From the NCBI RefSeq assembly GCF_000027125.1, contig NC_017626.1: a stretch of DNA of 64,000 nt; one strand, given 5' to 3'. The first letter of the stretch is position 1. The number at the start of each line of letters is the position of its first letter. Below are positions 2,371 through 57,871 of the stretch, piece by piece. This stretch comes from Escherichia coli 042. Its GTDB lineage: Bacteria > Pseudomonadota > Gammaproteobacteria > Enterobacterales > Enterobacteriaceae. A model generated the notes under the pieces. That model worked only from the letters and a program-made list of their open reading frames with translations. It made no database searches and was not told where the DNA came from. The position numbers were made by a program, and so were the translations under genes.

Positions 2371-3166
2371 TTATCCCAGTTGTCACCCGGATCATAGTCA
2401 CTTGATGTGACTATGATCCGATTAATACTCTCTCCGCTACACAGCGTTGTAGATCAATTGCGCACTATCATTGAAATAATTACCTGCTGATGATTATTTC
2501 AACCTACTGAATTTCATCTGATTTTTTCATTCCATGGCAAATTAGCCATTTCAAACATTATCATGGCTGATATTTTCCGTAGTCAGGTTTAATGTTTTAA
2601 AAGTGCTGTGGGAAAGTGAACAAAGAGTTCCGTAAGCGTTGATGCTATGGGCGGTTAAATAAGTAATCCGGGTTCATTTTTTGCAACAGGCGTTGATTAC
2701 ATTGCATAAATATCCGTGTCTCCAGACGCTATATAAAAACCTGAAGACATGAATGAGTTATTTACTCAGGTAATTTCAATGCGTTAAAAGAAAGCTGGCA
2801 ATCCAATTGCCAGCTTAAGTCGAAACAAGGAGACTCGATATTTAAATCGGATTACATTTTAACTTTAGTAATATTCTTCAGAGATCACAAACTGGTTATT
2901 GATAACTTATTCTTGGGCAGTAATCCGCAAACGTTAACTTTTTGTTTACTATTTACAAACTGTTAACAACCAGGAATCTTACTTAGGATCAATATATGGA
3001 GTGCGTGATGGATAAATCTGAAGTATTGATTAGTGTTAATAAACGTATTAGTTCACGAAGGGCAAAGTTCTTATAGGCGTTTACTATATTGAACAACGAT
3101 TCGGACAAGGATGTAAATAATGAAAAGGATGACATGTGCGAAACGATAACGGCTAAGGAGCAAGTT

Positions 3167-3694: not shown

Positions 3695-4032
3695 TCAGGA
3701 CATAAGCAACTGAAATTGATGGCTGGCATGACGAGGGATGCAGATGCTGATTTCATTACCCCCGGTGATTACTAAAGGAGAGGCGAAAACGACTTTATTC
3801 CCCTGGTATGTGTATCCACCAGTAGAACCCTTCGTTGCCCGAATGCTGGCAGGAACTGTTGGCAGAACGGCAACATTTTTTTTGTCGTTGACCTCACCAT
3901 GTCGATCACTATGCCTGTATCCCACCTTACTGGCTGACAACCCCACTATGCCGCTGGTCTGTAAATCCCTCATATCTCTCCTCGCGCGCAATTTAAAGAA
4001 CCGTTATTTCTCAAGAATTTTCAGGGACTAAA

Positions 4033-8200: not shown

Positions 8201-8328
8201 GCGCGCAAAACGCGGTAGGTACCGGCGTGATGGGCGGGATGTTTGCCGCAACAGTGCTGGCAATTTACTTCGTTCCGGTCTTTTTCGTTGTAGTGGAACA
8301 TCTCTTTGCCCGCTTTAAAAAAGCGTAA
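5215..8328 (+). CDS. mdtF: RND multidrug efflux transporter MdtF
   Basis: 1037-aa ORF, AcrB-like 12-TM RND permease ([28 protein letters not shown]...). Confidence 0.96.
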
Positions 8329-8690: not shown

Positions 8691-9419
8691 TCAGGAAAAG
8701 GTACCTGGCGAATGTTGCGCAAACTGATGTGGCGTTACACCATAATATTGTCGAAATGTGTTTATAAAGTACGATGTACTGCTATAGCCACATTTTTCCG
8801 CAATAGTATGCAGAGGAATTTGACGTAACTCGAGTAATCGTCTGGCCATCGACATCCTGGAGGCGAGTAATATTTTACTGAAACAGGTATTTTCATCCTG
8901 CAACTTTTTTTTGATTAGACTCTCGCTGGTATACATTCTTTCCGCGATATCGCGCAGATACCAACGTTTAGCGATATCAAAGCTAATAAGGCGTTCAACT
9001 TTTCCTGAAACAGTACTGATACTATTGAAAAGTAAGGGGATCAGTTCTTTCTTATGAGAAAACATCGATAAACAGGAAAGATAGAGCATTTTGCTCAGTA
9101 TCGGCGAATTTACCCCGGAGTCATTGAAACTATCAAAAATCGCCGTCACCAGCGGCATGGGGGGTGACTGGTTAATTAACAGACGGTCTTTGCTATGTAA
9201 CCCTAAATTGCGTGGTATCTGACGAATATTTTGTAAGTAATGGCAAACTGTCAGCTCATCGATATCCAGTCGTCGCGTATCCGGTGAACAAAACGCAAAA
9301 TCGTCTGCCAAATTTTTATCCAGTAACAGGATACTCTCGTTGTGCAACGATATTTTTTGCTGTTCATGATAAATATCGAATGAACGACGAACGAGGATCA
9401 CCGAGCAGACATGAGTCAT
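8691..9419 (-). CDS. gadW: AraC-family acid-resistance regulator GadW
   Basis: 242-aa ORF with C-terminal AraC-type HTH (…YFINTFRQYYGVTPHQFAQHSPGTFS). Confidence 0.94.
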   Translation of the reverse strand: MTHVCSVILVRRSFDIYHEQQKISLHNESILLLDKNLADDFAFCSPDTRRLDIDELTVCHYLQNIRQIPRNLGLHSKDRLLINQSPPMPLVTAIFDSFNDSGVNSPILSKMLYLSCLSMFSHKKELIPLLFNSISTVSGKVERLISFDIAKRWYLRDIAERMYTSESLIKKKLQDENTCFSKILLASRMSMARRLLELRQIPLHTIAEKCGYSSTSYFINTFRQYYGVTPHQFAQHSPGTFS

Positions 9420-9665
9420 GACTATCCCTTATATTTCATTACTGCGATTATTTCAATTTCAGTATACTAATGAAATGATGCCAGACTGTTTCTTAGCGCA
9501 AAAACTGCCAGATTTGGTAGGACCAAAATTTATCCACAAAGTAGTTTTGCATAACAGTTAATTGATAATAAGTAAATGCAACACGAATATATTTTCGCAC
9601 AGCGTATAGCTTATGTTTATAAAAAAATGGCTGATCTTATTTCCAGTAAAAGTTATATTTAACTT

Positions 9666-9771
9666 ACTGAGAGCACAAAGTTTCCCGTGCCAACAGGGAG
9701 TGTTATAACGGTTTATTAGTCTGGAGACGGCAGACTATCCTCTTCCCGGTCCCCTATGCCGGGTTTTTTTT
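9666..9771 (+). ncRNA. gadY: Small regulatory RNA GadY, cis-antisense to the gadX 3' UTR
   Basis: Sequence actgagagcacaaagtttcccgtgccaacagggagtgttataacgg...cccggtcccctatgccgggtttttttt matches the GadY sequence as I recall it and ends in a GC hairpin plus T8 terminator on the plus strand, in the gadX-gadW intergenic region. Confidence 0.75.
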
Positions 9772-9787
9772 ATGTCTGAGTAAAACT

Positions 9788-10612
9788 CTATAATCTTATT
9801 CCTTCCGCAGAACAGTCAGTGCCGTAAAAATTCCCTTGCGCAACAATACTTGCCGCCGAGTCACGGTTCGACAATCCCTGCGCCGATCGCTCCTGATACT
9901 CTGTGGGCGTCATCCCATAATAATTTCGAAAGACGTAAATGAAATACGACACGCTGTGATATCCACAGGACACTGCGACTCGCTTAATTGAAAAGCCATG
10001 TATAACAATAAGTTGCAAAGCATGTTGCATTCTACACTCAGTAAGCAACTGTGAATATGAAGTCTCTTCTTCGCGCAATTTTTTCTTTAACAGGCTTGGA
10101 CTCATCAACAGCTCGCTGGCGATTCGGGCTAGTGTCCACTCATGGGCGATATTATTATTGATAACCGTACAAACTCGTGTTCGCATGTTCGGTTGCAAAA
10201 CGTTCAGAAGTAGCGGTATAAACTGCTCATCCTCCAGAAAAACAGATAACAGCGCAAAGATTAATGCTCTTTTACGTAGCGTTTCTGCATAGCGAAGATT
10301 CTTATTCTGCGATAGTTGCGCAACTTCCTGAAAAACAGGAATATCTCTGGTACAGTGATGAACGAGTAATGAAGGAACTTTTTTATGTGCATGAAGTTTT
10401 AATGCCTCCTCCTTGAGCATCGGGAGAAATAATGAAAGCGTATCCCTTGAAACTAATATGAAATGTTCACCACACTTATCTACTCGAATTTGGCTTGCAT
10501 CCGCAAAAACCAGGTCACCGCCATTAAAATAGCGATATTCACCATTAACCATGGTGAGAATATATTTATGTCTTGCGTACGCAATTAGACAATTCCCATG
10601 TAGTGATTGCAT
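9788..10612 (-). CDS. gadX: AraC-family acid-resistance regulator GadX
   Basis: 274-aa ORF MQSLHGNCLIAYARHKYILTMVNGEYRY... with C-terminal AraC HTH. Confidence 0.94.
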   Translation of the reverse strand: MQSLHGNCLIAYARHKYILTMVNGEYRYFNGGDLVFADASQIRVDKCGEHFILVSRDTLSLFLPMLKEEALKLHAHKKVPSLLVHHCTRDIPVFQEVAQLSQNKNLRYAETLRKRALIFALLSVFLEDEQFIPLLLNVLQPNMRTRVCTVINNNIAHEWTLARIASELLMSPSLLKKKLREEETSYSQLLTECRMQHALQLIVIHGFSIKRVAVSCGYHSVSYFIYVFRNYYGMTPTEYQERSAQGLSNRDSAASIVAQGNFYGTDCSAEGIRL

Positions 10613-10912
10613 AGTTGGCTTAATATTACATAAACATATTACTGTTTATTAATGTAGCACGCCGCCCTCTTAAGTCAAATTGATTGATAAATAAATTTTA
10701 ACGAAGCGGGAAAACAGGATGATAATCTACGGGCAGGATGACTGGATTTATAATACAAAAGGCGCGCTTAAGAACGCAGTGAAATTAATAATAAGCAAAT
10801 AATACCTTGTAGTGACATGAAAAATATCCGTTACATTGAATAAACATTCATATAACATATATCTTATCAACACGATGAATAGACAGCCAATATATTATTG
10901 CGATTAATAAGC

Positions 10913-10958
10913 AACCGAATGCCCAACTGTTTTTTAAAGGTTGGGCATTCGGTTTTTA
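10913..10958 (-). terminator. Putative terminator downstream of gadA
   Basis: Perfect 14-15 bp inverted repeat aaccgaatgcccaac / gttgggcattcggtt between the gadA stop and the gadX start. Confidence 0.5.
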
Positions 10959-10971
10959 CAACGTTATGTTA

Positions 10972-12372
10972 TCAGGTGTGTTTAAAGCTGTTCTGCTGGG
11001 CAATACCCTGCAGTTTCGGGTGATCGCTGAGATATTTCAGGGAGGCTTTGTAGTCTTCCAGCAACAGTTCAGCAAAGTCCATTTCGAAGCCGCGACGACA
11101 CATAATGCGCATCACCACGATGTCGGTGGCTTCACCGCCGAGAGTGAAGGCCGGAACCTGCCAGCCGCGCAGACGCAGACGTTCAGAGAGGTCGTACAGG
11201 GTGTATCCCGGATCTTCACCATCTTTCAGTTTGAAGCAAACCGCCGGGATGCCTTCGTCCGGGCGACCGGTACAGATGAACTCATACGGCCCCAGTTTGG
11301 CGATTTCATCCGCCAGATAGGCAGCGACCTGGTAGGAAGCATTCTGTACTTTGGTATAGCCTTCACGACCGAGGCGCAGGAATTCATAGTACTGTGCAAT
11401 TACCTGACCCGCCGGGCGGGAGAAGTTGATGGCGAAAGTCCCAATCTGACCACCGAGATAGTCAACGTTGAACACCAGTTCCTGCGGCAGCGCTTCTTCA
11501 TCACGCCAGATAACCCAGCCGCAGCCCAGCGGAGCCAGACCGAATTTATGGCCTGAAGCACTGATCGATTTCACACGCGGCAGGCGGAAGTCCCAGACGA
11601 TATCCGGGGCGACGAACGGTGCCAGGAAGCCACCGCTGGCGGCGTCGATGTGCATGTCGATGTCGATGCCGGTGTCGGCCTGGAATTTATCCAGCGCATC
11701 GTGCAGCGGCTGCGGGAACTCATAGTTACCGGTGTAGGTCACGCCGAAAGTCGGCACCACGCCGATGGTGTTTTCGTCGCAGGCTTCAATCATGCGTTTC
11801 GGGTCCATAAACAACTGACCGGGGCGCATAGGGATCTCACGCAGCTCCACATCCCAGTAGCGGGCAAATTTATGCCAGCAGATTTGTACCGGACCGCACA
11901 CCAGGTTTGGTTTGTTGGTCGGCTTACCTGCGGCTTCCATACGCTTGCGCCAACGCCATTTCATCGCCATCCCGCCGAGCATACAGGCCTCGGAAGAACC
12001 AATGGTGTTGGTGCCAACGGCCTGACCATTTTTCGGCGCAGGCGCATGCCACAGATCGGCAACCATGTTTACGCAACGCAGGTCGATGGCTGCAGATTGC
12101 GGATATTCTTCTTTGTCGATCCAGTTTTTATTGATCGACAAATCCATCAATTTATGGACGTTTTCGTCGTCCCAGGTCTGGCAGAAAGTGGCCAGGTTCT
12201 GACGAGCGTTGCCATCAAGATATAATTCATCATTGATAATCTGGAATGCGACATCATCGCGCATTTCGTGCAGCGGAAATCGTTTTGACTCCGCGATAGT
12301 AGAAATGGCCTTTGCGCCAAAACGTGAATCGAGTAGTTCTGAGCGGAAATCCGTTAACAGCTTCTGGTCCAT
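10972..12372 (-). CDS. gadA: Glutamate decarboxylase A (PLP-dependent)
   Basis: ORF 10972..12435 trimmed to the ATG at 12370-12372 ([21 protein letters not shown]...); 466 aa; contains the PLP-lysine region [10 protein letters not shown]. Called gadA rather than gadB from its position next to gadX. Confidence 0.95.
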
Positions 12373-46973: not shown

Positions 46974-47059
46974 GAACGAAAAAGGCCGCAGAGTTTCACC
47001 CCTGCGGCCTGATCCGGGCGCAAATTGCCATTACGGCAGCCTGACGCCCGCATGACACG

Positions 47060-47167
47060 TTACTTCCGCTTATTCAGCGAGTTCACGATCAGACTGGCAA
47101 GAATGCCAGCAATGACCGGAGCCGCTAAATCATGCCAGAAGGCCATGCCCAGTTCTGCGAGCGTCAT
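47060..47167 (-). CDS. ldr: Ldr-family type I toxin peptide (35 aa), copy 1
   Basis: MTLAELGMAFWHDLAAPVIAGILASLIVNSLNKRK; ATG at 47165-47167. The ORF-track 80-aa ORF is an upstream in-frame extension. Confidence 0.85.
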   Translation of the reverse strand: MTLAELGMAFWHDLAAPVIAGILASLIVNSLNKRK

Positions 47168-47215
47168 ATAGCCGCCTCTGTTGTAATGACAACGTTTCGC
47201 GGCTATTCTTGAGTT

Positions 47216-47283
47216 GTTTGGGTTCAAGATTAGCCCCCGTGATGTTGTCAGGTGCATACCTGCAACGTGCGGGGGTTTTCTCT
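47216..47283 (+). ncRNA. rdl: Rdl-family antisense RNA, copy 1
   Basis: Plus-strand element ending in the hairpin gcccccg...cgggggttttctct within the ldr leader; coordinates inferred from my recollection of RdlD. Confidence 0.55.
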
Positions 47284-47542
47284 CTCCAGCAACCAATGCC
47301 ACCAGGGATTAAGCCCCCGCAACATTGCGCCTCACCGGAACCCTTCCGGCTTGCCGCTGATTCTACGGCCATTTTTGTTCGTCGAAATCCATCACTTCTT
47401 CACTCTGTGCTGCGCATTCCGCAGAATATTATCCGCTTGCAGCCGTTGCATTTTTCTTACGAAAAAGGCCGCAGAGTTTCACCTCTGCGGCCTGGTCCGG
47501 GCGCAAATTGCCATTACGGCAGCCTGACGCCCGTCTGACACG

Positions 47543-47650
47543 TTACTTCCGCTTATTCAGCCAGTTCACGATCATGCTGGCAAGAATGCCAGCAATGACC
47601 GGAGCCGCTAAATCATGCCAGAAGGCCATGCCCAGCTCTGCGAGCGTCAT
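47543..47650 (-). CDS. ldr: Ldr-family type I toxin peptide (35 aa), copy 2
   Basis: Same frame and length as copy 1; C-terminus ...ASMIVNWLNKRK; not reported separately in the ORF track. Confidence 0.8.
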   Translation of the reverse strand: MTLAELGMAFWHDLAAPVIAGILASMIVNWLNKRK

Positions 47651-47698
47651 ATAGCCGCCAGTGTTGTAATGACAACGTTTCGCGGCTATTCTTGAGTT

Positions 47699-47766
47699 GT
47701 GTAGGTTCAAGAATGGCCCCCGTCATATTGTCAGGTGAATACCTGCAACGTGCGGGGGTTTTCTCT
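47699..47766 (+). ncRNA. rdl: Rdl-family antisense RNA, copy 2
   Basis: Repeat-unit copy of the rdl element with terminator hairpin. Confidence 0.5.
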
Positions 47767-48025
47767 CTCCAGCAACCAATGCCACCAGGGATTAAGCCCC
47801 CGCAACATTGCGCCTCACCGGAACCCTTCCGGCTTGCCGCTGATTCTACGACTGTTTTTCTGTTCCGAAATCCATCACTTCTTCACTCTGTGCTGCGCAT
47901 TCCGCAGAATATTATCCGCTTGCAGCCGTTGCATTTTTCTTACGAAAAAGGCCGCAGAGTTTTATCCCTGCGGCCTGATCCGGGCGCAAATTGCCATTAC
48001 GGCAGCCTGACGCCCGTCTGACACG

Positions 48026-48133
48026 TTACTTCTGCTTGTTCAGCCAGTTCACGATCATGCTGGCAAGAATGCCAGCAATGACCGGAGCCGCTAAATCGTG
48101 CCAGAAGGCCATGCCCAGCTCTGCGAGCGTCAT
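48026..48133 (-). CDS. ldr: Ldr-family type I toxin peptide (35 aa), copy 3
   Basis: MTLAELGMAFWHDLAAPVIAGILASMIVNWLNKQK. Confidence 0.85.
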   Translation of the reverse strand: MTLAELGMAFWHDLAAPVIAGILASMIVNWLNKQK

Positions 48134-48181
48134 ATAGCCGCCTCTGTTGTAATGACAACGTTTCGCGGCTATTCTTGAGTT

Positions 48182-48249
48182 GTGTAGGTTCAAGAATGGC
48201 CCCCGTGATGTTGTCAGGTGCATACCTGCAACGTGCGGGGGTTTTCTCT
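48182..48249 (+). ncRNA. rdl: Rdl-family antisense RNA, copy 3
   Basis: Repeat-unit copy of the rdl element with terminator hairpin. Confidence 0.5.
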
Positions 48250-48508
48250 CTCCAGCAACCAATGCCACCAGGGATTAAGCCCCCGCAACATTGCGCCTCA
48301 CCGGAACCCTTCCGGCTTGCCGCTGATTCTACGACTGTTTTTCTGTTCCGAAATCCATCACTTCTTCACTCTGTGCTGCGCATTCCGCAGAATATTATCC
48401 GCTTGCAGCCGTTGCATTTTTCTTACGAAAAAGGCCGCAGAGTTTCACCTCTGCGGCCTGGTCCGGGCGCAAATTGCCATTACGGCAGCCTGACGCCCGT
48501 CTGACACG

Positions 48509-48616
48509 TTACTTCCGCTTGTTCAGCCAGTTCACGATCATGCTGGCAAGAATGCCAGCAATGACCGGAGCCGCTAAATCATGCCAGAAGGCCATGCCCA
48601 GTTCTGCGAGCGTCAT
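48509..48616 (-). CDS. ldr: Ldr-family type I toxin peptide (35 aa), copy 4
   Basis: MTLAELGMAFWHDLAAPVIAGILASMIVNWLNKRK. Confidence 0.85.
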   Translation of the reverse strand: MTLAELGMAFWHDLAAPVIAGILASMIVNWLNKRK

Positions 48617-48664
48617 ATAGCCGCCTGAGTTGTAATGACAACGTTTCGCGGCTATTCTTGAATG

Positions 48665-48732
48665 GTCTAGATGCAAGAATGGCCCCCGTGGTGTTGTCAG
48701 GTGCATACCTGCAACGTGCGGGGGTTTTCTCT
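48665..48732 (+). ncRNA. rdl: Rdl-family antisense RNA, copy 4 (RdlD-like)
   Basis: gtctagatgcaagaatggcccccgtggtgttgtcaggtgcatacctgcaacgtgcgggggttttctct, the copy closest to the RdlD sequence as I recall it. Confidence 0.6.
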
Positions 48733-48991
48733 CTCCAGCAACCAATGCCACCAGGGATTAAGCCCCCGCAACATTGCGCCTCACCGGAACCCTTCCGGCT
48801 TGCCGCTGATTCTACGGCCATTTTTGTTCGTCGAAATCCATCACTTCTTCACTCTGTGCTGCGCATTCCGCAGAATATTATCCGCTTGCAGCCGTTGCAT
48901 TTTTCTTACGAAAAAGGCCGCAGAGTTTTATCCCTGCGGCCTGATCCGGGCGCAAATTGCCATTACGGCAGCCTGACGCCCGTCTGACACG

Positions 48992-49099
48992 TTACTTCTG
49001 CTTGTTCAGCCAGTTCACGATCATGCTGGCAAGAATGCCAGCAATGACCGGAGCCGCTAAATCGTGCCAGAAGGCCATGCCCAGCTCTGCGAGCGTCAT
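48992..49099 (-). CDS. ldr: Ldr-family type I toxin peptide (35 aa), copy 5
   Basis: MTLAELGMAFWHDLAAPVIAGILASMIVNWLNKQK. Confidence 0.85.
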   Translation of the reverse strand: MTLAELGMAFWHDLAAPVIAGILASMIVNWLNKQK

Positions 49100-49147
49100 A
49101 TAGCCGCCTCTGTTGTAATGACAACGTTTCGCGGCTATTCTTGAGTT

Positions 49148-49215
49148 GTGTAGGTTCAAGAATGGCCCCCGTGATGTTGTCAGGTGCATACCTGCAACGT
49201 GCGGGGGTTTTCTCT
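49148..49215 (+). ncRNA. rdl: Rdl-family antisense RNA, copy 5
   Basis: Repeat-unit copy of the rdl element with terminator hairpin. Confidence 0.5.
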
Positions 49216-49574
49216 CTCCAGCAACCAATGCCACCAGGGATAAAGCCCCCGCAACATTGCGCCTCACCGGAACCTTTCCGGCTTGCCGCTGATTCTACGA
49301 TTGCTTTTTACCGTCAGCACCCGGCAATCTTCCTCATTGCGCGATGCCTTCCAGCTTAATTTCTTTATTTGCAATAGTTGCAGTTCATATCCGGGCTGAC
49401 TCCAGACTGGTAGTGAAATGCGCAATTTTGTAGAATTGCGCCTCCTCGCGACCTCCCCAGTGAATCTGTTGCCTCATTTTTTACATACTGCGTATTCGAC
49501 TTCTCCACCTGTTGCGCAAGAGAAACTGGGTTTATTCATTTTTGCGAGGCCGACTTCTTTCTGGACAGGACTTT

Positions 49575-54900: not shown

Positions 54901-55072
<172 letters not shown>

Positions 55073-56750: not shown

Positions 56751-57295
56751 CCCTTTGCAGTGGGTTGTCGCTGCCTGACCTTTTTTGTTTTTTGCCCGGT
56801 CGGGTCAACGTTATGAGGTGGGGATGCCGTACTAATTAACATCAGTGTAACAGTGCGGATCCTCCATAAAATGCCCCTCGTGACCTACAATCTGTCAACA
56901 GAATGTGAAAACGTCAATACAGCCAACCGGGATTTACACCAACGGTGAGAATCCACAAACAAAGATTAAAAAAACTTCAAACAGCTATTTGCAGCAGAGA
57001 AATTTGTGCTACTCCAACATGACCAGAACAATCAGCTTAATATTTAGCAACAATTGGTGATTAAGTTTTATGCATTTTGTGAAAAAAATCTGAGGAAAAG
57101 GTGGATATCTGAGCGATTAATACCATGAACGCTAAAACGCACAGCGGAAAATGCCAGCGCCAGCCATAAGTAACGCAAAAAAAAATTTAAGCAAATATAA
57201 AAAAAGACAATGGTTTCTGTCACAAATCCGTTAATGGATAGTGAGATATGGGCGCAAATTTGGCAGGAAAATGTGTGGTGTGTAGGTCGAATAAG

Positions 57296-57794
57296 GCGGT
57301 CGCGCCGCATCCGACAATGGGCCGGCACATTTGCCTGATGCGACGCTGGCGCGTCTTATCAGGCCTACGTCGAATCGAACCTCCCTGCCCCCGGAAGTTC
57401 TCATCCTCTTCAGGCCGCAGAAAGCAAAAAACCAGCCCGTAGGCTGGTTTTTCTAAATTGGTCGGTGATAGAGGATTACTCGCCACTTCGTGGCTCGCCC
57501 TGCGGGCCGTTGCTGGCGCAACGTTCTCTCGCTTCGCTCGAGTCGAATCTCCCTGCCCCCGGAGGTTCTCATCCTCATAGGCTACAAATGCAAAAAAGCC
57601 TGCTCGCTGAGCAGGCTTTTCGAATTTGGTCGGTGCCAGAGGATTACTCGCCACTTCGTGGCTCGCCCTGCGGGCCGTTGCTGGCGCAACGTTCTCTCGC
57701 TTCGCTCGAGTCGAACCTCCCTGCCCCCGGAGGTTCTCATCCTCATGGGCTACAAATGCAAAAAAGCCTGCTCGCTGAGCAGGCTTTTCGAATT
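57296..57794. repeat. Three tandem imperfect direct repeats (about 150-185 bp), each ending with a terminator hairpin plus a roughly 20-nt copy of the proK 3' end
   Basis: Units at about 57296-57479, 57480-57648 and 57649-57794. Each contains tcgaa(t/c)ctccctgcccccgga(a/g)gttctcatcctc, a hairpin (aaaaaaccagcccgtaggctggttttt or aaaaaagcctgctcgctgagcaggctttt) and aatttggtcggtg(at/cc)agaggatt, which matches the proK 3' terminus. Confidence 0.7.
57762..57790 (-). terminator. Rho-independent terminator of proK
   Basis: On the minus strand aaaagcctgctcagcgagcaggcttttttg, 5 nt after the tRNA 3' end. Confidence 0.65.

Positions 57795-57871
<77 letters not shown>

What the first reader, a model, noticed from the sequence alone, without database searches (positions are those of the whole stretch)
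9666..9771. GadY sRNA encoded antisense to the gadX 3' end with its own terminator
The plus-strand segment matches the GadY sequence as I recall it and ends in a GC hairpin followed by eight T residues. Its 3' end is 17 nt from the gadX stop on the opposite strand, consistent with GadY base pairing to the gadX-gadW mRNA 3' UTR.
Basis: partly seen in the sequence, partly recalled or inferred. Interest (0 to 1): 0.3.

Follow-up and report, generated by a model that had tools for sequence, protein, structure and literature searches.

The report
The known E. coli GadY sRNA

Summary
Confirmed, and already known. Window 9666-9771 (+) scores 150 bits against Rfam GadY (RF00122, gathering score 45, E = 8e-32), over the full model length, with every base equal to the consensus. 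The context is the canonical one: gadX (9788-10612, -) upstream and gadW (8691-9419, -) downstream on the opposite strand, with gadA and mdtF beyond them. The RNA ends in a 6-bp GC-rich hairpin followed by T8. Its end lies 17 coordinates (16 intervening bases) from the gadX stop codon. The 106 nt are at least 99% identical in 5,412 of 5,426 complete E. coli genomes. They stay 98-100% identical in other Escherichia species whose gadX and gadW genes are only 77-81% identical. The mechanism comes from the literature and was not tested here. GadY pairs with the gadX-gadW intercistronic RNA and directs its cleavage by RNase III plus an unidentified nuclease. The separate gadX and gadW transcripts are more stable, which raises acid resistance. 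Nothing in this copy differs from the described one.

The parts
9666..9771 (+). GadY small RNA, full-length form (106 nt as annotated in RefSeq K-12)
   Evidence: Rfam RF00122 at 150 bits, E = 8e-32. 100% identical to K-12 b4452. At least 99% identical in 5,412 of 5,426 complete E. coli genomes.
9666..9712 (+). Predicted 5' compound hairpin of GadY
   Evidence: The MFE structure is identical to the Rfam consensus structure. It has no covariation support: the only two substitutions seen in other Escherichia species (9696 G>T, 9712 T>C) each break a predicted pair.
9717..9737 (+). Predicted central hairpin of GadY (7 bp, loop of 7)
   Evidence: MFE and Rfam consensus structure agree. Invariant in all six Escherichia sequences aligned.
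9745..9771 (+). Intrinsic terminator of gadY: hairpin 9745-9763 plus T8 at 9764-9771
   Evidence: Terminator scan and direct reading. Invariant across Escherichia apart from one extra T in one species.
9654..9659 (+). -10 hexamer TATATT of the gadY promoter, 6 nt upstream of the annotated 5' end
   Evidence: Direct reading. Identical to K-12 and invariant in six Escherichia sequences. Assignment as the -10 is an inference from its position relative to the annotated 5' end. The simple sigma-70 scan did not report this promoter because the -35 is weak.
9627..9636 (+). ATGGCTGA (9627-9634), a match to the published AppY motif ATGSCWGM, overlapping a weak -35-like hexamer CTGATC (9631-9636; 17-nt spacer to the -10)
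   Evidence: The motif, and its position overlapping the -35 of gadY, are taken from PMC10057817. The match in the window is by direct reading. Binding was not tested here.
9420..9787 (-). gadX-gadW intercistronic RNA (the gadX 3' UTR). Its segment 9666-9771 is perfectly complementary to GadY and is the published site of GadY-directed cleavage
   Evidence: Complementarity follows from the geometry. There is no terminator-like site on the - strand in 9300-10000. On the - strand the hairpin is followed by AAGAGG, not a U run, so read-through from gadX into gadW is plausible. Co-transcription and cleavage come from the literature.
9788..10612 (-). gadX, an AraC-family activator of the glutamate-dependent acid-resistance genes; upstream cistron of the target mRNA
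   Evidence: NCBIfam NF007432 equivalog at 589.7 bits against a cut-off of 500, full length. Syntenic with K-12 b3516.
8691..9419 (-). gadW, an AraC-family regulator; downstream cistron of the target mRNA
   Evidence: ORF of 242 aa. 97.5% nucleotide identity to K-12 gadW. Annotated as gadW in the syntenic RefSeq records.
10972..12372 (-). gadA, glutamate decarboxylase A; downstream output of the GadX/GadY circuit
   Evidence: TIGR01788 at 692 bits against a cut-off of 380. K-12 synteny.

Best explanation
Window 9666-9771 (+) is the gadY gene of Escherichia coli, in the acid fitness island. It is transcribed from its own promoter (-10 TATATT at 9654-9659, with a weak -35 overlapped by an AppY-type site) and ends at its own intrinsic terminator. 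The result is a ~105-nt Hfq-binding RNA. Because it is encoded opposite the gadX-gadW intercistronic region, it is perfectly complementary to the gadXW transcript just downstream of the gadX stop codon. [quoted passage not shown] The unstable bicistronic mRNA is thereby split into separate gadX and gadW transcripts, which accumulate to higher levels. More GadX raises expression of gadA and gadBC, and with it glutamate-dependent acid resistance.

Shown here: identity, boundaries, terminator, genomic context, conservation, and the absence of a minus-strand terminator. Taken from the literature and not tested here: expression, Hfq binding, the cleavage mechanism, the physiological output, and additional trans roles (CsrA titration, sdiA).
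For: Identity: RF00122 at 150 bits against a gathering score of 45, E = 8e-32, full length, all bases consensus. 100% identity to the K-12 gadY ncRNA b4452 at exactly 9666-9771.

Promoter region: identical to K-12 from 9582 onward. An AppY motif match lies at 9627-9634 (motif from PMC10057817).

Terminator: 9745-9771.

Context: gadX passes its equivalog model. The gene order mdtF / gadW / gadY / gadX / gadA / ccp is the same as in K-12.

Read-through of gadX into gadW: no minus-strand terminator-like site in 9300-10000, and no U run after the hairpin on that strand.

Selection: at least 99% identity in 5,412 of 5,426 E. coli genomes. In E. whittamii and Escherichia sp. E1V33, gadY is 98.1% identical while the gadX CDS is 79-81% and the gadW CDS 77-78% identical. 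104 of 108 alignment columns are invariant inside gadY, against 3 of 16 in the gap before the gadX stop.

Not a coding region: no ORF of 20 aa or more starts inside the RNA.

Mechanism from the literature: GadY positively regulates gadX and gadW by affecting RNase III processing of gadXW (PMC3937726). Processing gives separate, more stable gadX and gadW transcripts, and a second unidentified endoribonuclease is involved (PMC5029454; PMC3919570). GadY binds Hfq and is stabilised by it (PMC4152368). RNase III-derived dsRNA fragments have been captured at gadY in vivo (PMC7373196).
Against: Nothing argues against the identification. There are limits to what was shown here.

(1) No expression data exist for this strain.

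(2) The three-hairpin structure is not independently supported. The MFE is no better than shuffled sequence (z = -0.73). The family is almost invariant. The only two substitutions found in other Escherichia species each break a predicted pair rather than compensate.

(3) The two primary papers (PMC522195, PMC3030618) are not held in the library, so the mechanism is cited through later papers. One of those (PMC10783499) names RNase E in its text and RNase III in its figure legend.

(4) Sequence conservation cannot say which strand is constrained, GadY itself or the gadXW intercistronic RNA.
Confidence: 0.97

Rival explanations
1. The region's main role is in trans. On this reading GadY acts chiefly as an Hfq-dependent or CsrA-titrating RNA on unlinked targets (the pgaABCD biofilm pathway via CsrA, sdiA mRNA), and the antisense overlap with gadXW is secondary.
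For: A cis-antisense pair stays perfectly complementary whatever mutates, so pairing with gadXW alone does not explain why the primary sequence is 98-100% conserved while the flanking genes have diverged to 77-81%. Published trans roles exist: CsrA titration and biofilm (PMC10057817, citing Parker 2017) and sdiA (PMC11300174). Whether Hfq binding serves the cis or the trans function is stated to be unclear (PMC4152368).
Against: The cis effect on gadXW is the experimentally established one, and several independent papers restate it. The two roles do not exclude each other, so this extends the best explanation rather than replacing it. Nothing in the sequence can rank the two.
Confidence: 0.25
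2. The conserved element is really a cis-acting feature of the gadX-gadW mRNA, such as an intercistronic processing or stability site, and the plus-strand RNA is a by-product.
For: Conservation is a property of the duplex DNA and cannot be assigned to a strand. The minus-strand RNA of this region folds somewhat better than shuffles (z = -1.67), against -0.73 for GadY itself.
Against: The plus strand carries a complete transcription unit: a conserved -10, an AppY-bound promoter, and an intrinsic terminator that works only in the plus direction. Overexpressing GadY changes gadX and gadW transcript levels (literature). dCas13a directed against GadY RNA lowers gadX mRNA and acid survival (PMC10783499).
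Confidence: 0.03
3. The interval is only a chance hairpin or terminator, or a short protein-coding gene, and not an sRNA.
For: None beyond the fact that the fold energy alone is unremarkable.
Against: Rfam E = 8e-32. Exact identity to a curated ncRNA. There is no upstream plus-strand gene to terminate: mdtF ends at 8328 and gadW lies between on the other strand. No ORF of 20 aa or more starts inside it.
Confidence: 0.005

Closest known systems
GadY (Rfam RF00122; E. coli K-12 gadY, b4452; formerly IS183)
   Same: Everything testable is the same: the 106 nt, the promoter region, the terminator, the 17-coordinate offset from gadX, and the gene order mdtF / gadW / gadY / gadX / gadA.
   Different: Nothing within the RNA or its promoter. 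The only differences from K-12 in the 368-bp gadW-gadX spacer are two substitutions and one 1-bp indel, all upstream of 9582, near gadW.
Other cis-antisense RNAs that direct RNase III cleavage of an overlapping mRNA (lambda OOP with cII-O; type I antitoxins such as Sok, IstR-1, OrzO)
   Same: Perfect or extended complementarity to the overlapping transcript. RNase III takes part in cleaving the duplex, and residual cleavage persists in rnc mutants (PMC3919570).
   Different: For GadY the outcome is positive: the cleavage products are more stable than the precursor. Those other systems repress or degrade their target (PMC5029454).
SraG (antisense RNA in the rpsO-pnp intergenic region)
   Same: An sRNA encoded opposite the spacer between two co-oriented genes of one transcription unit, with an unidentified nuclease involved (PMC5029454).
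   Different: A different locus, sequence and outcome. It is not homologous, and there is no Rfam cross-match in the window.

Membership tests
GadY sRNA (Rfam RF00122) | Covariance-model score at or above the family gathering score (45 bits) | tested here: met
   150 bits, E = 8.3e-32, model positions 1-114 of 114, not truncated.
GadY sRNA (Rfam RF00122) | Sequence identity to the experimentally characterised K-12 gene | tested here: met
   100% over 106 nt with no gaps, at window 9666-9771.
GadY sRNA (Rfam RF00122) | Encoded between gadX and gadW on the opposite strand, overlapping the gadX 3' UTR | tested here: met
   gadX at 9788-10612 (-) passes NF007432. gadW lies at 8691-9419 (-). The order and spacing are the same as in K-12.
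GadY sRNA (Rfam RF00122) | Own Rho-independent terminator defining the common 3' end | tested here: met
   Hairpin at 9745-9763 plus T8 at 9764-9771. It is the only terminator-like site in 9300-10000.
GadY sRNA (Rfam RF00122) | Own promoter upstream of the mapped 5' end (reported as RpoS-dependent and AppY-activated) | tested here: inconclusive
   The sequence upstream is identical to K-12. A -10 TATATT lies at 9654-9659, and an AppY motif match at 9627-9634 (motif from PMC10057817). The generic sigma-70 scan did not call it. Promoter activity and sigma-factor dependence cannot be tested on sequence. RpoS dependence is from my own knowledge of Opdyke 2004, which is not held in the library.
GadY sRNA (Rfam RF00122) | Three-hairpin secondary structure | tested here: inconclusive
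   The MFE structure equals the Rfam consensus structure. However, z = -0.73 against shuffles, there is no covariation, and the two substitutions seen in other Escherichia species both break pairs.
GadY sRNA (Rfam RF00122) | Expressed as ~105-nt and shorter processed forms; binds Hfq | not testable with these tools
   This needs a northern blot, RNA-seq or Hfq co-immunoprecipitation. Hfq binding is reported in the literature (PMC4152368). The 105/90/59-nt forms are from my memory of Opdyke 2004.
GadY sRNA (Rfam RF00122) | Directs cleavage of gadX-gadW mRNA, increasing gadX and gadW transcript levels | not testable with these tools
   Literature only. The sequence is compatible with it: complementarity is perfect and there is no minus-strand terminator between gadX and gadW.

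The most novel reading that the evidence does not exclude
GadY's primary sequence is held almost invariant across the genus Escherichia: 98-100% identical where the neighbouring gadX and gadW genes are 77-81% identical, and 104 of 108 columns invariant against 3 of 16 in the adjacent 16-nt gap. Complementarity to gadXW is preserved automatically in a cis-antisense pair, so it cannot be the source of this constraint. The constraint would then reflect sequence-specific requirements: Hfq or CsrA binding, trans targets, or recognition by the still unidentified second endonuclease. That would make the invariant single-stranded segments a handle for finding that nuclease or the trans targets.
Probability: 0.4. 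Interest if true: 0.2.

Novelty: already known. Interest (0 to 1): 0.05.

Why it matters
It matters little as a discovery. GadY has been characterised since 2004 and is annotated in the K-12 reference genome, and this copy is identical to it. The value of the check is practical. It anchors the window as the E. coli acid fitness island, collinear with K-12 from about 3.655 Mb. It also notes that routine PGAP annotation leaves this gene unannotated in the sampled RefSeq E. coli genomes: 'none' under the match in all 27 listed rows. The conservation contrast measured here is a small by-product that fits published suggestions of trans-acting roles.

Tried and rejected
(1) I tried to read the two primary papers (PMC522195, PMC3030618) and the Thomason & Storz review (PMC3030471). 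None is held. The mechanism was therefore taken from seven held papers that report those results.

(2) I looked for covariation support for the structure by collecting GadY from other species. An exact 27-mer scan of 100,044 species-representative genomes gave only five loci, all Escherichia, and they are nearly identical. No compensatory change exists, so I built no covariance model of my own.

(3) Thermodynamic stability does not work as evidence: z = -0.73.

(4) The generic sigma-70 promoter scan does not report the gadY promoter. I placed the -10 and -35 by position relative to the annotated 5' end and by the published AppY motif.

(5) I considered a small-protein reading and rejected it.

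(6) I considered whether the five rdlD hits together with the RtT hits meant a rearrangement joining the ldrABC/tyrT region to this locus, and rejected it. The tRNA is proK (Pro-CGG), and the gene order bcsG / ldr / yhjV / dpp / proK / eptB is the K-12 order. Only repeat copy numbers differ.

Full report
**Observation.** It described the RNA as ending in a GC hairpin plus eight T, 17 nt from the gadX stop codon on the other strand. A scan of the whole window against Rfam 15 at gathering thresholds gives one GadY (RF00122) match, at 9663-9776 on the + strand. It scores 150 bits against a gathering score of 45, with E = 8.3e-32, and covers all 114 model positions. Every base equals the model consensus. 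Reading the sequence and the terminator scan confirm the stem-loop CCCGGTCCCCTATGCCGGG at 9745-9763, followed by T8 at 9764-9771. This is the only terminator-like site on either strand between 9300 and 10000. The ORF at 9788-10612 (-) has its TAG stop at 9788-9790, so the coordinate difference from the GadY 3' end is 17, with 16 bases in between.

**Context.** The 274-aa product of 9788-10612 (-) matches the NCBIfam GadX equivalog NF007432 over its full length, at 589.7 bits against a cut-off of 500. The product of 10972-12372 (-) is glutamate decarboxylase (TIGR01788, 692 bits). The 242-aa ORF at 8691-9419 (-) is an AraC-family protein. It corresponds to gadW in the syntenic RefSeq records of K-12 MG1655 and of strain 118UI. 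The order mdtF (+), gadW (-), gadY (+), gadX (-), gadA (-), ccp (-) is that of the K-12 acid fitness island.

**Comparison with the curated reference.** NC_000913.3 annotates the ncRNA gadY (b4452) at 3664864-3664969, 106 nt, 17 coordinates below the low end of gadX. Over the whole 368-bp gadW-gadX spacer the window differs from K-12 at three positions, all upstream of 9582. GadY and about 85 bp upstream of it are identical.

**Anatomy.** The MFE structure of the 106-nt RNA has three parts: a compound 5' hairpin (9666-9712), a central 7-bp hairpin (9717-9737) and the terminator hairpin (9745-9763). It is identical to the Rfam consensus structure.

The structure is not independently supported, though. 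The MFE is no lower than that of dinucleotide shuffles (z = -0.73), and there is no covariation (see Conservation below).

Upstream, TATATT at 9654-9659 lies 6 nt before the annotated 5' end. A weak -35-like CTGATC lies 17 nt further up. ATGGCTGA at 9627-9634 matches the AppY motif ATGSCWGM, which PMC10057817 places over the -35 of gadY and shows to contribute to AppY-dependent activation. These promoter assignments are inferences from position. The generic sigma-70 scan did not call the site.

On the minus strand no terminator-like site exists between gadX and gadW. The reverse complement of the GadY terminator is followed by AAGAGG rather than a U run. This fits the published co-transcription of gadX and gadW. 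No ORF of 20 aa or more begins inside the RNA.

**Conservation.** The 106 nt are found at 99% identity or better in 5,412 of 5,426 complete E. coli genomes. They are always chromosomal and almost always single copy. PGAP leaves the gene unannotated in every listed record.

An exact 27-mer from GadY occurs in only five of 100,044 species-representative genomes. All five are Escherichia: two E. coli clusters, E. whittamii, Escherichia sp. E1V33 and Escherichia sp. MOD1-EC7003. All five score as GadY, at 123-150 bits.

| Segment | Identity to the window, or invariant columns |
|---|---|
| gadY, in E. whittamii and sp. E1V33 | 98.1% |
| gadX CDS, same two species | 79-81% |
| gadW CDS, same two species | 77-78% |
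| Rest of the spacer (9420-9599), same two species | about 73% |
| gadY, six-sequence alignment | 104 of 108 columns invariant |
| 66 nt upstream of gadY | 48 of 66 columns invariant |
| 16-nt gap before the gadX stop | 3 of 16 columns invariant |

GadY is therefore the most conserved element of the locus. The two substitutions found (9696 G>T, 9712 T>C) each disrupt a predicted pair of the 5' hairpin and are not compensated.

**Mechanism (from the literature, not tested here).**
- Overexpression leads to processing of gadXW into separate gadX and gadW transcripts. These are more stable and accumulate to higher levels. An unidentified endoribonuclease acts besides RNase III (PMC5029454).
- Cleavage persists, with slightly shifted sites, in rnc mutants (PMC3919570).
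- GadY binds Hfq and is stabilised by it, but it is unclear whether Hfq serves the cis function or possible trans targets (PMC4152368).
- RNase III-derived dsRNA fragments are captured at gadY in vivo (PMC7373196).
- Blocking GadY with dCas13a lowers gadX mRNA and acid survival (PMC10783499).
- Reported trans roles are CsrA titration with effects on PGA-dependent biofilm (PMC10057817) and sdiA (PMC11300174).

The two primary papers (Opdyke 2004, PMC522195; Opdyke 2011, PMC3030618) are not held in the library. RpoS dependence and the 105/90/59-nt isoforms are from my own recollection of them.

**Rivals.** A purely incidental hairpin or a coding gene is excluded. The conserved element could in principle belong to the gadXW mRNA rather than to GadY, and sequence conservation alone cannot exclude this. 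However, the plus strand carries a complete, conserved transcription unit, and published trans-complementation and RNA-targeting experiments argue against that reading. A predominantly trans-acting role is compatible with the data. It would help explain why the primary sequence, and not just complementarity, is conserved. It extends the accepted model rather than replacing it.

**Verdict.** Both the observation and the interpretation are correct. The feature is the already known GadY sRNA, identical to the K-12 reference, in its canonical context. Novelty: already known. Interest: 0.05.

Noticed in passing
window 46976-49309; Ldr ORFs at 47060-47167, 47543-47650, 48026-48133, 48509-48616 and 48992-49099 (all -); rdlD matches at 47216, 47699, 48182, 48665 and 49148 (+): There are five tandem ldr/rdl type I toxin-antitoxin units between bcsG and yhjV (483-bp period, 4.8 copies, 95% matches). 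K-12 has a single ldrD/rdlD there and strain 118UI has two. All five 35-aa Ldr ORFs are intact, in three sequence variants. Across complete E. coli genomes the unit occurs at a median of 4 and up to 12 places per genome, so this is ordinary copy-number variation.
   Followed up: yes
window 57370-57813 (-), next to tRNA-Pro(CGG) proK at 57795-57871 (-): Two RtT-family matches (57459-57592 and 57627-57762, at 97 and 100 bits) form a 168-bp tandem array of 2.6 copies. The array starts inside the 3' end of proK, which resembles the RtT repeats known downstream of tyrT. K-12 has one RtT unit at this site, and strain 118UI has an IS1397 inserted in the same spacer.
   Followed up: partly
window 3793-3883 (+) and 2786-2855 (-): The Rfam 'ES205' match (3812-3883) lies inside the sRNA that K-12 annotates as GadF (gadE 3' UTR, b4718), which is 100% identical here. 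ArrS (b4704, antisense to the gadE leader) is also 100% identical here but did not appear among the Rfam gathering-threshold matches. The island therefore carries three annotated sRNAs: ArrS, GadF and GadY.
   Followed up: partly
window 57285-57365 (+) and 55009-55051 (+): There are Rfam matches to naRNA4/CssrE (70.5 bits) and ES036/CssrF (52.4 bits), in the dppA-proK spacer and the dppB-dppA spacer. Both are present at the same relative positions in K-12.
   Followed up: partly
window 9420-9787 compared with RefSeq E. coli records: PGAP-annotated RefSeq genomes list no feature under gadY ('none' in all 27 listed rows), although the sequence is present in 5,412 of 5,426 genomes. Among the records examined, only the curated K-12 record carries the ncRNA.
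   Followed up: yes
window 9788-10612 (-) and 10613-10971: This strain's gadX is 96.8% identical to K-12's at the nucleotide level, and the gadX-gadA spacer only 91% identical with 12 gap positions. Both are clearly more diverged than gadY and its promoter, which are 100% identical. The spacer as a whole is 100% identical to that of uropathogenic strain 118UI.
   Followed up: partly
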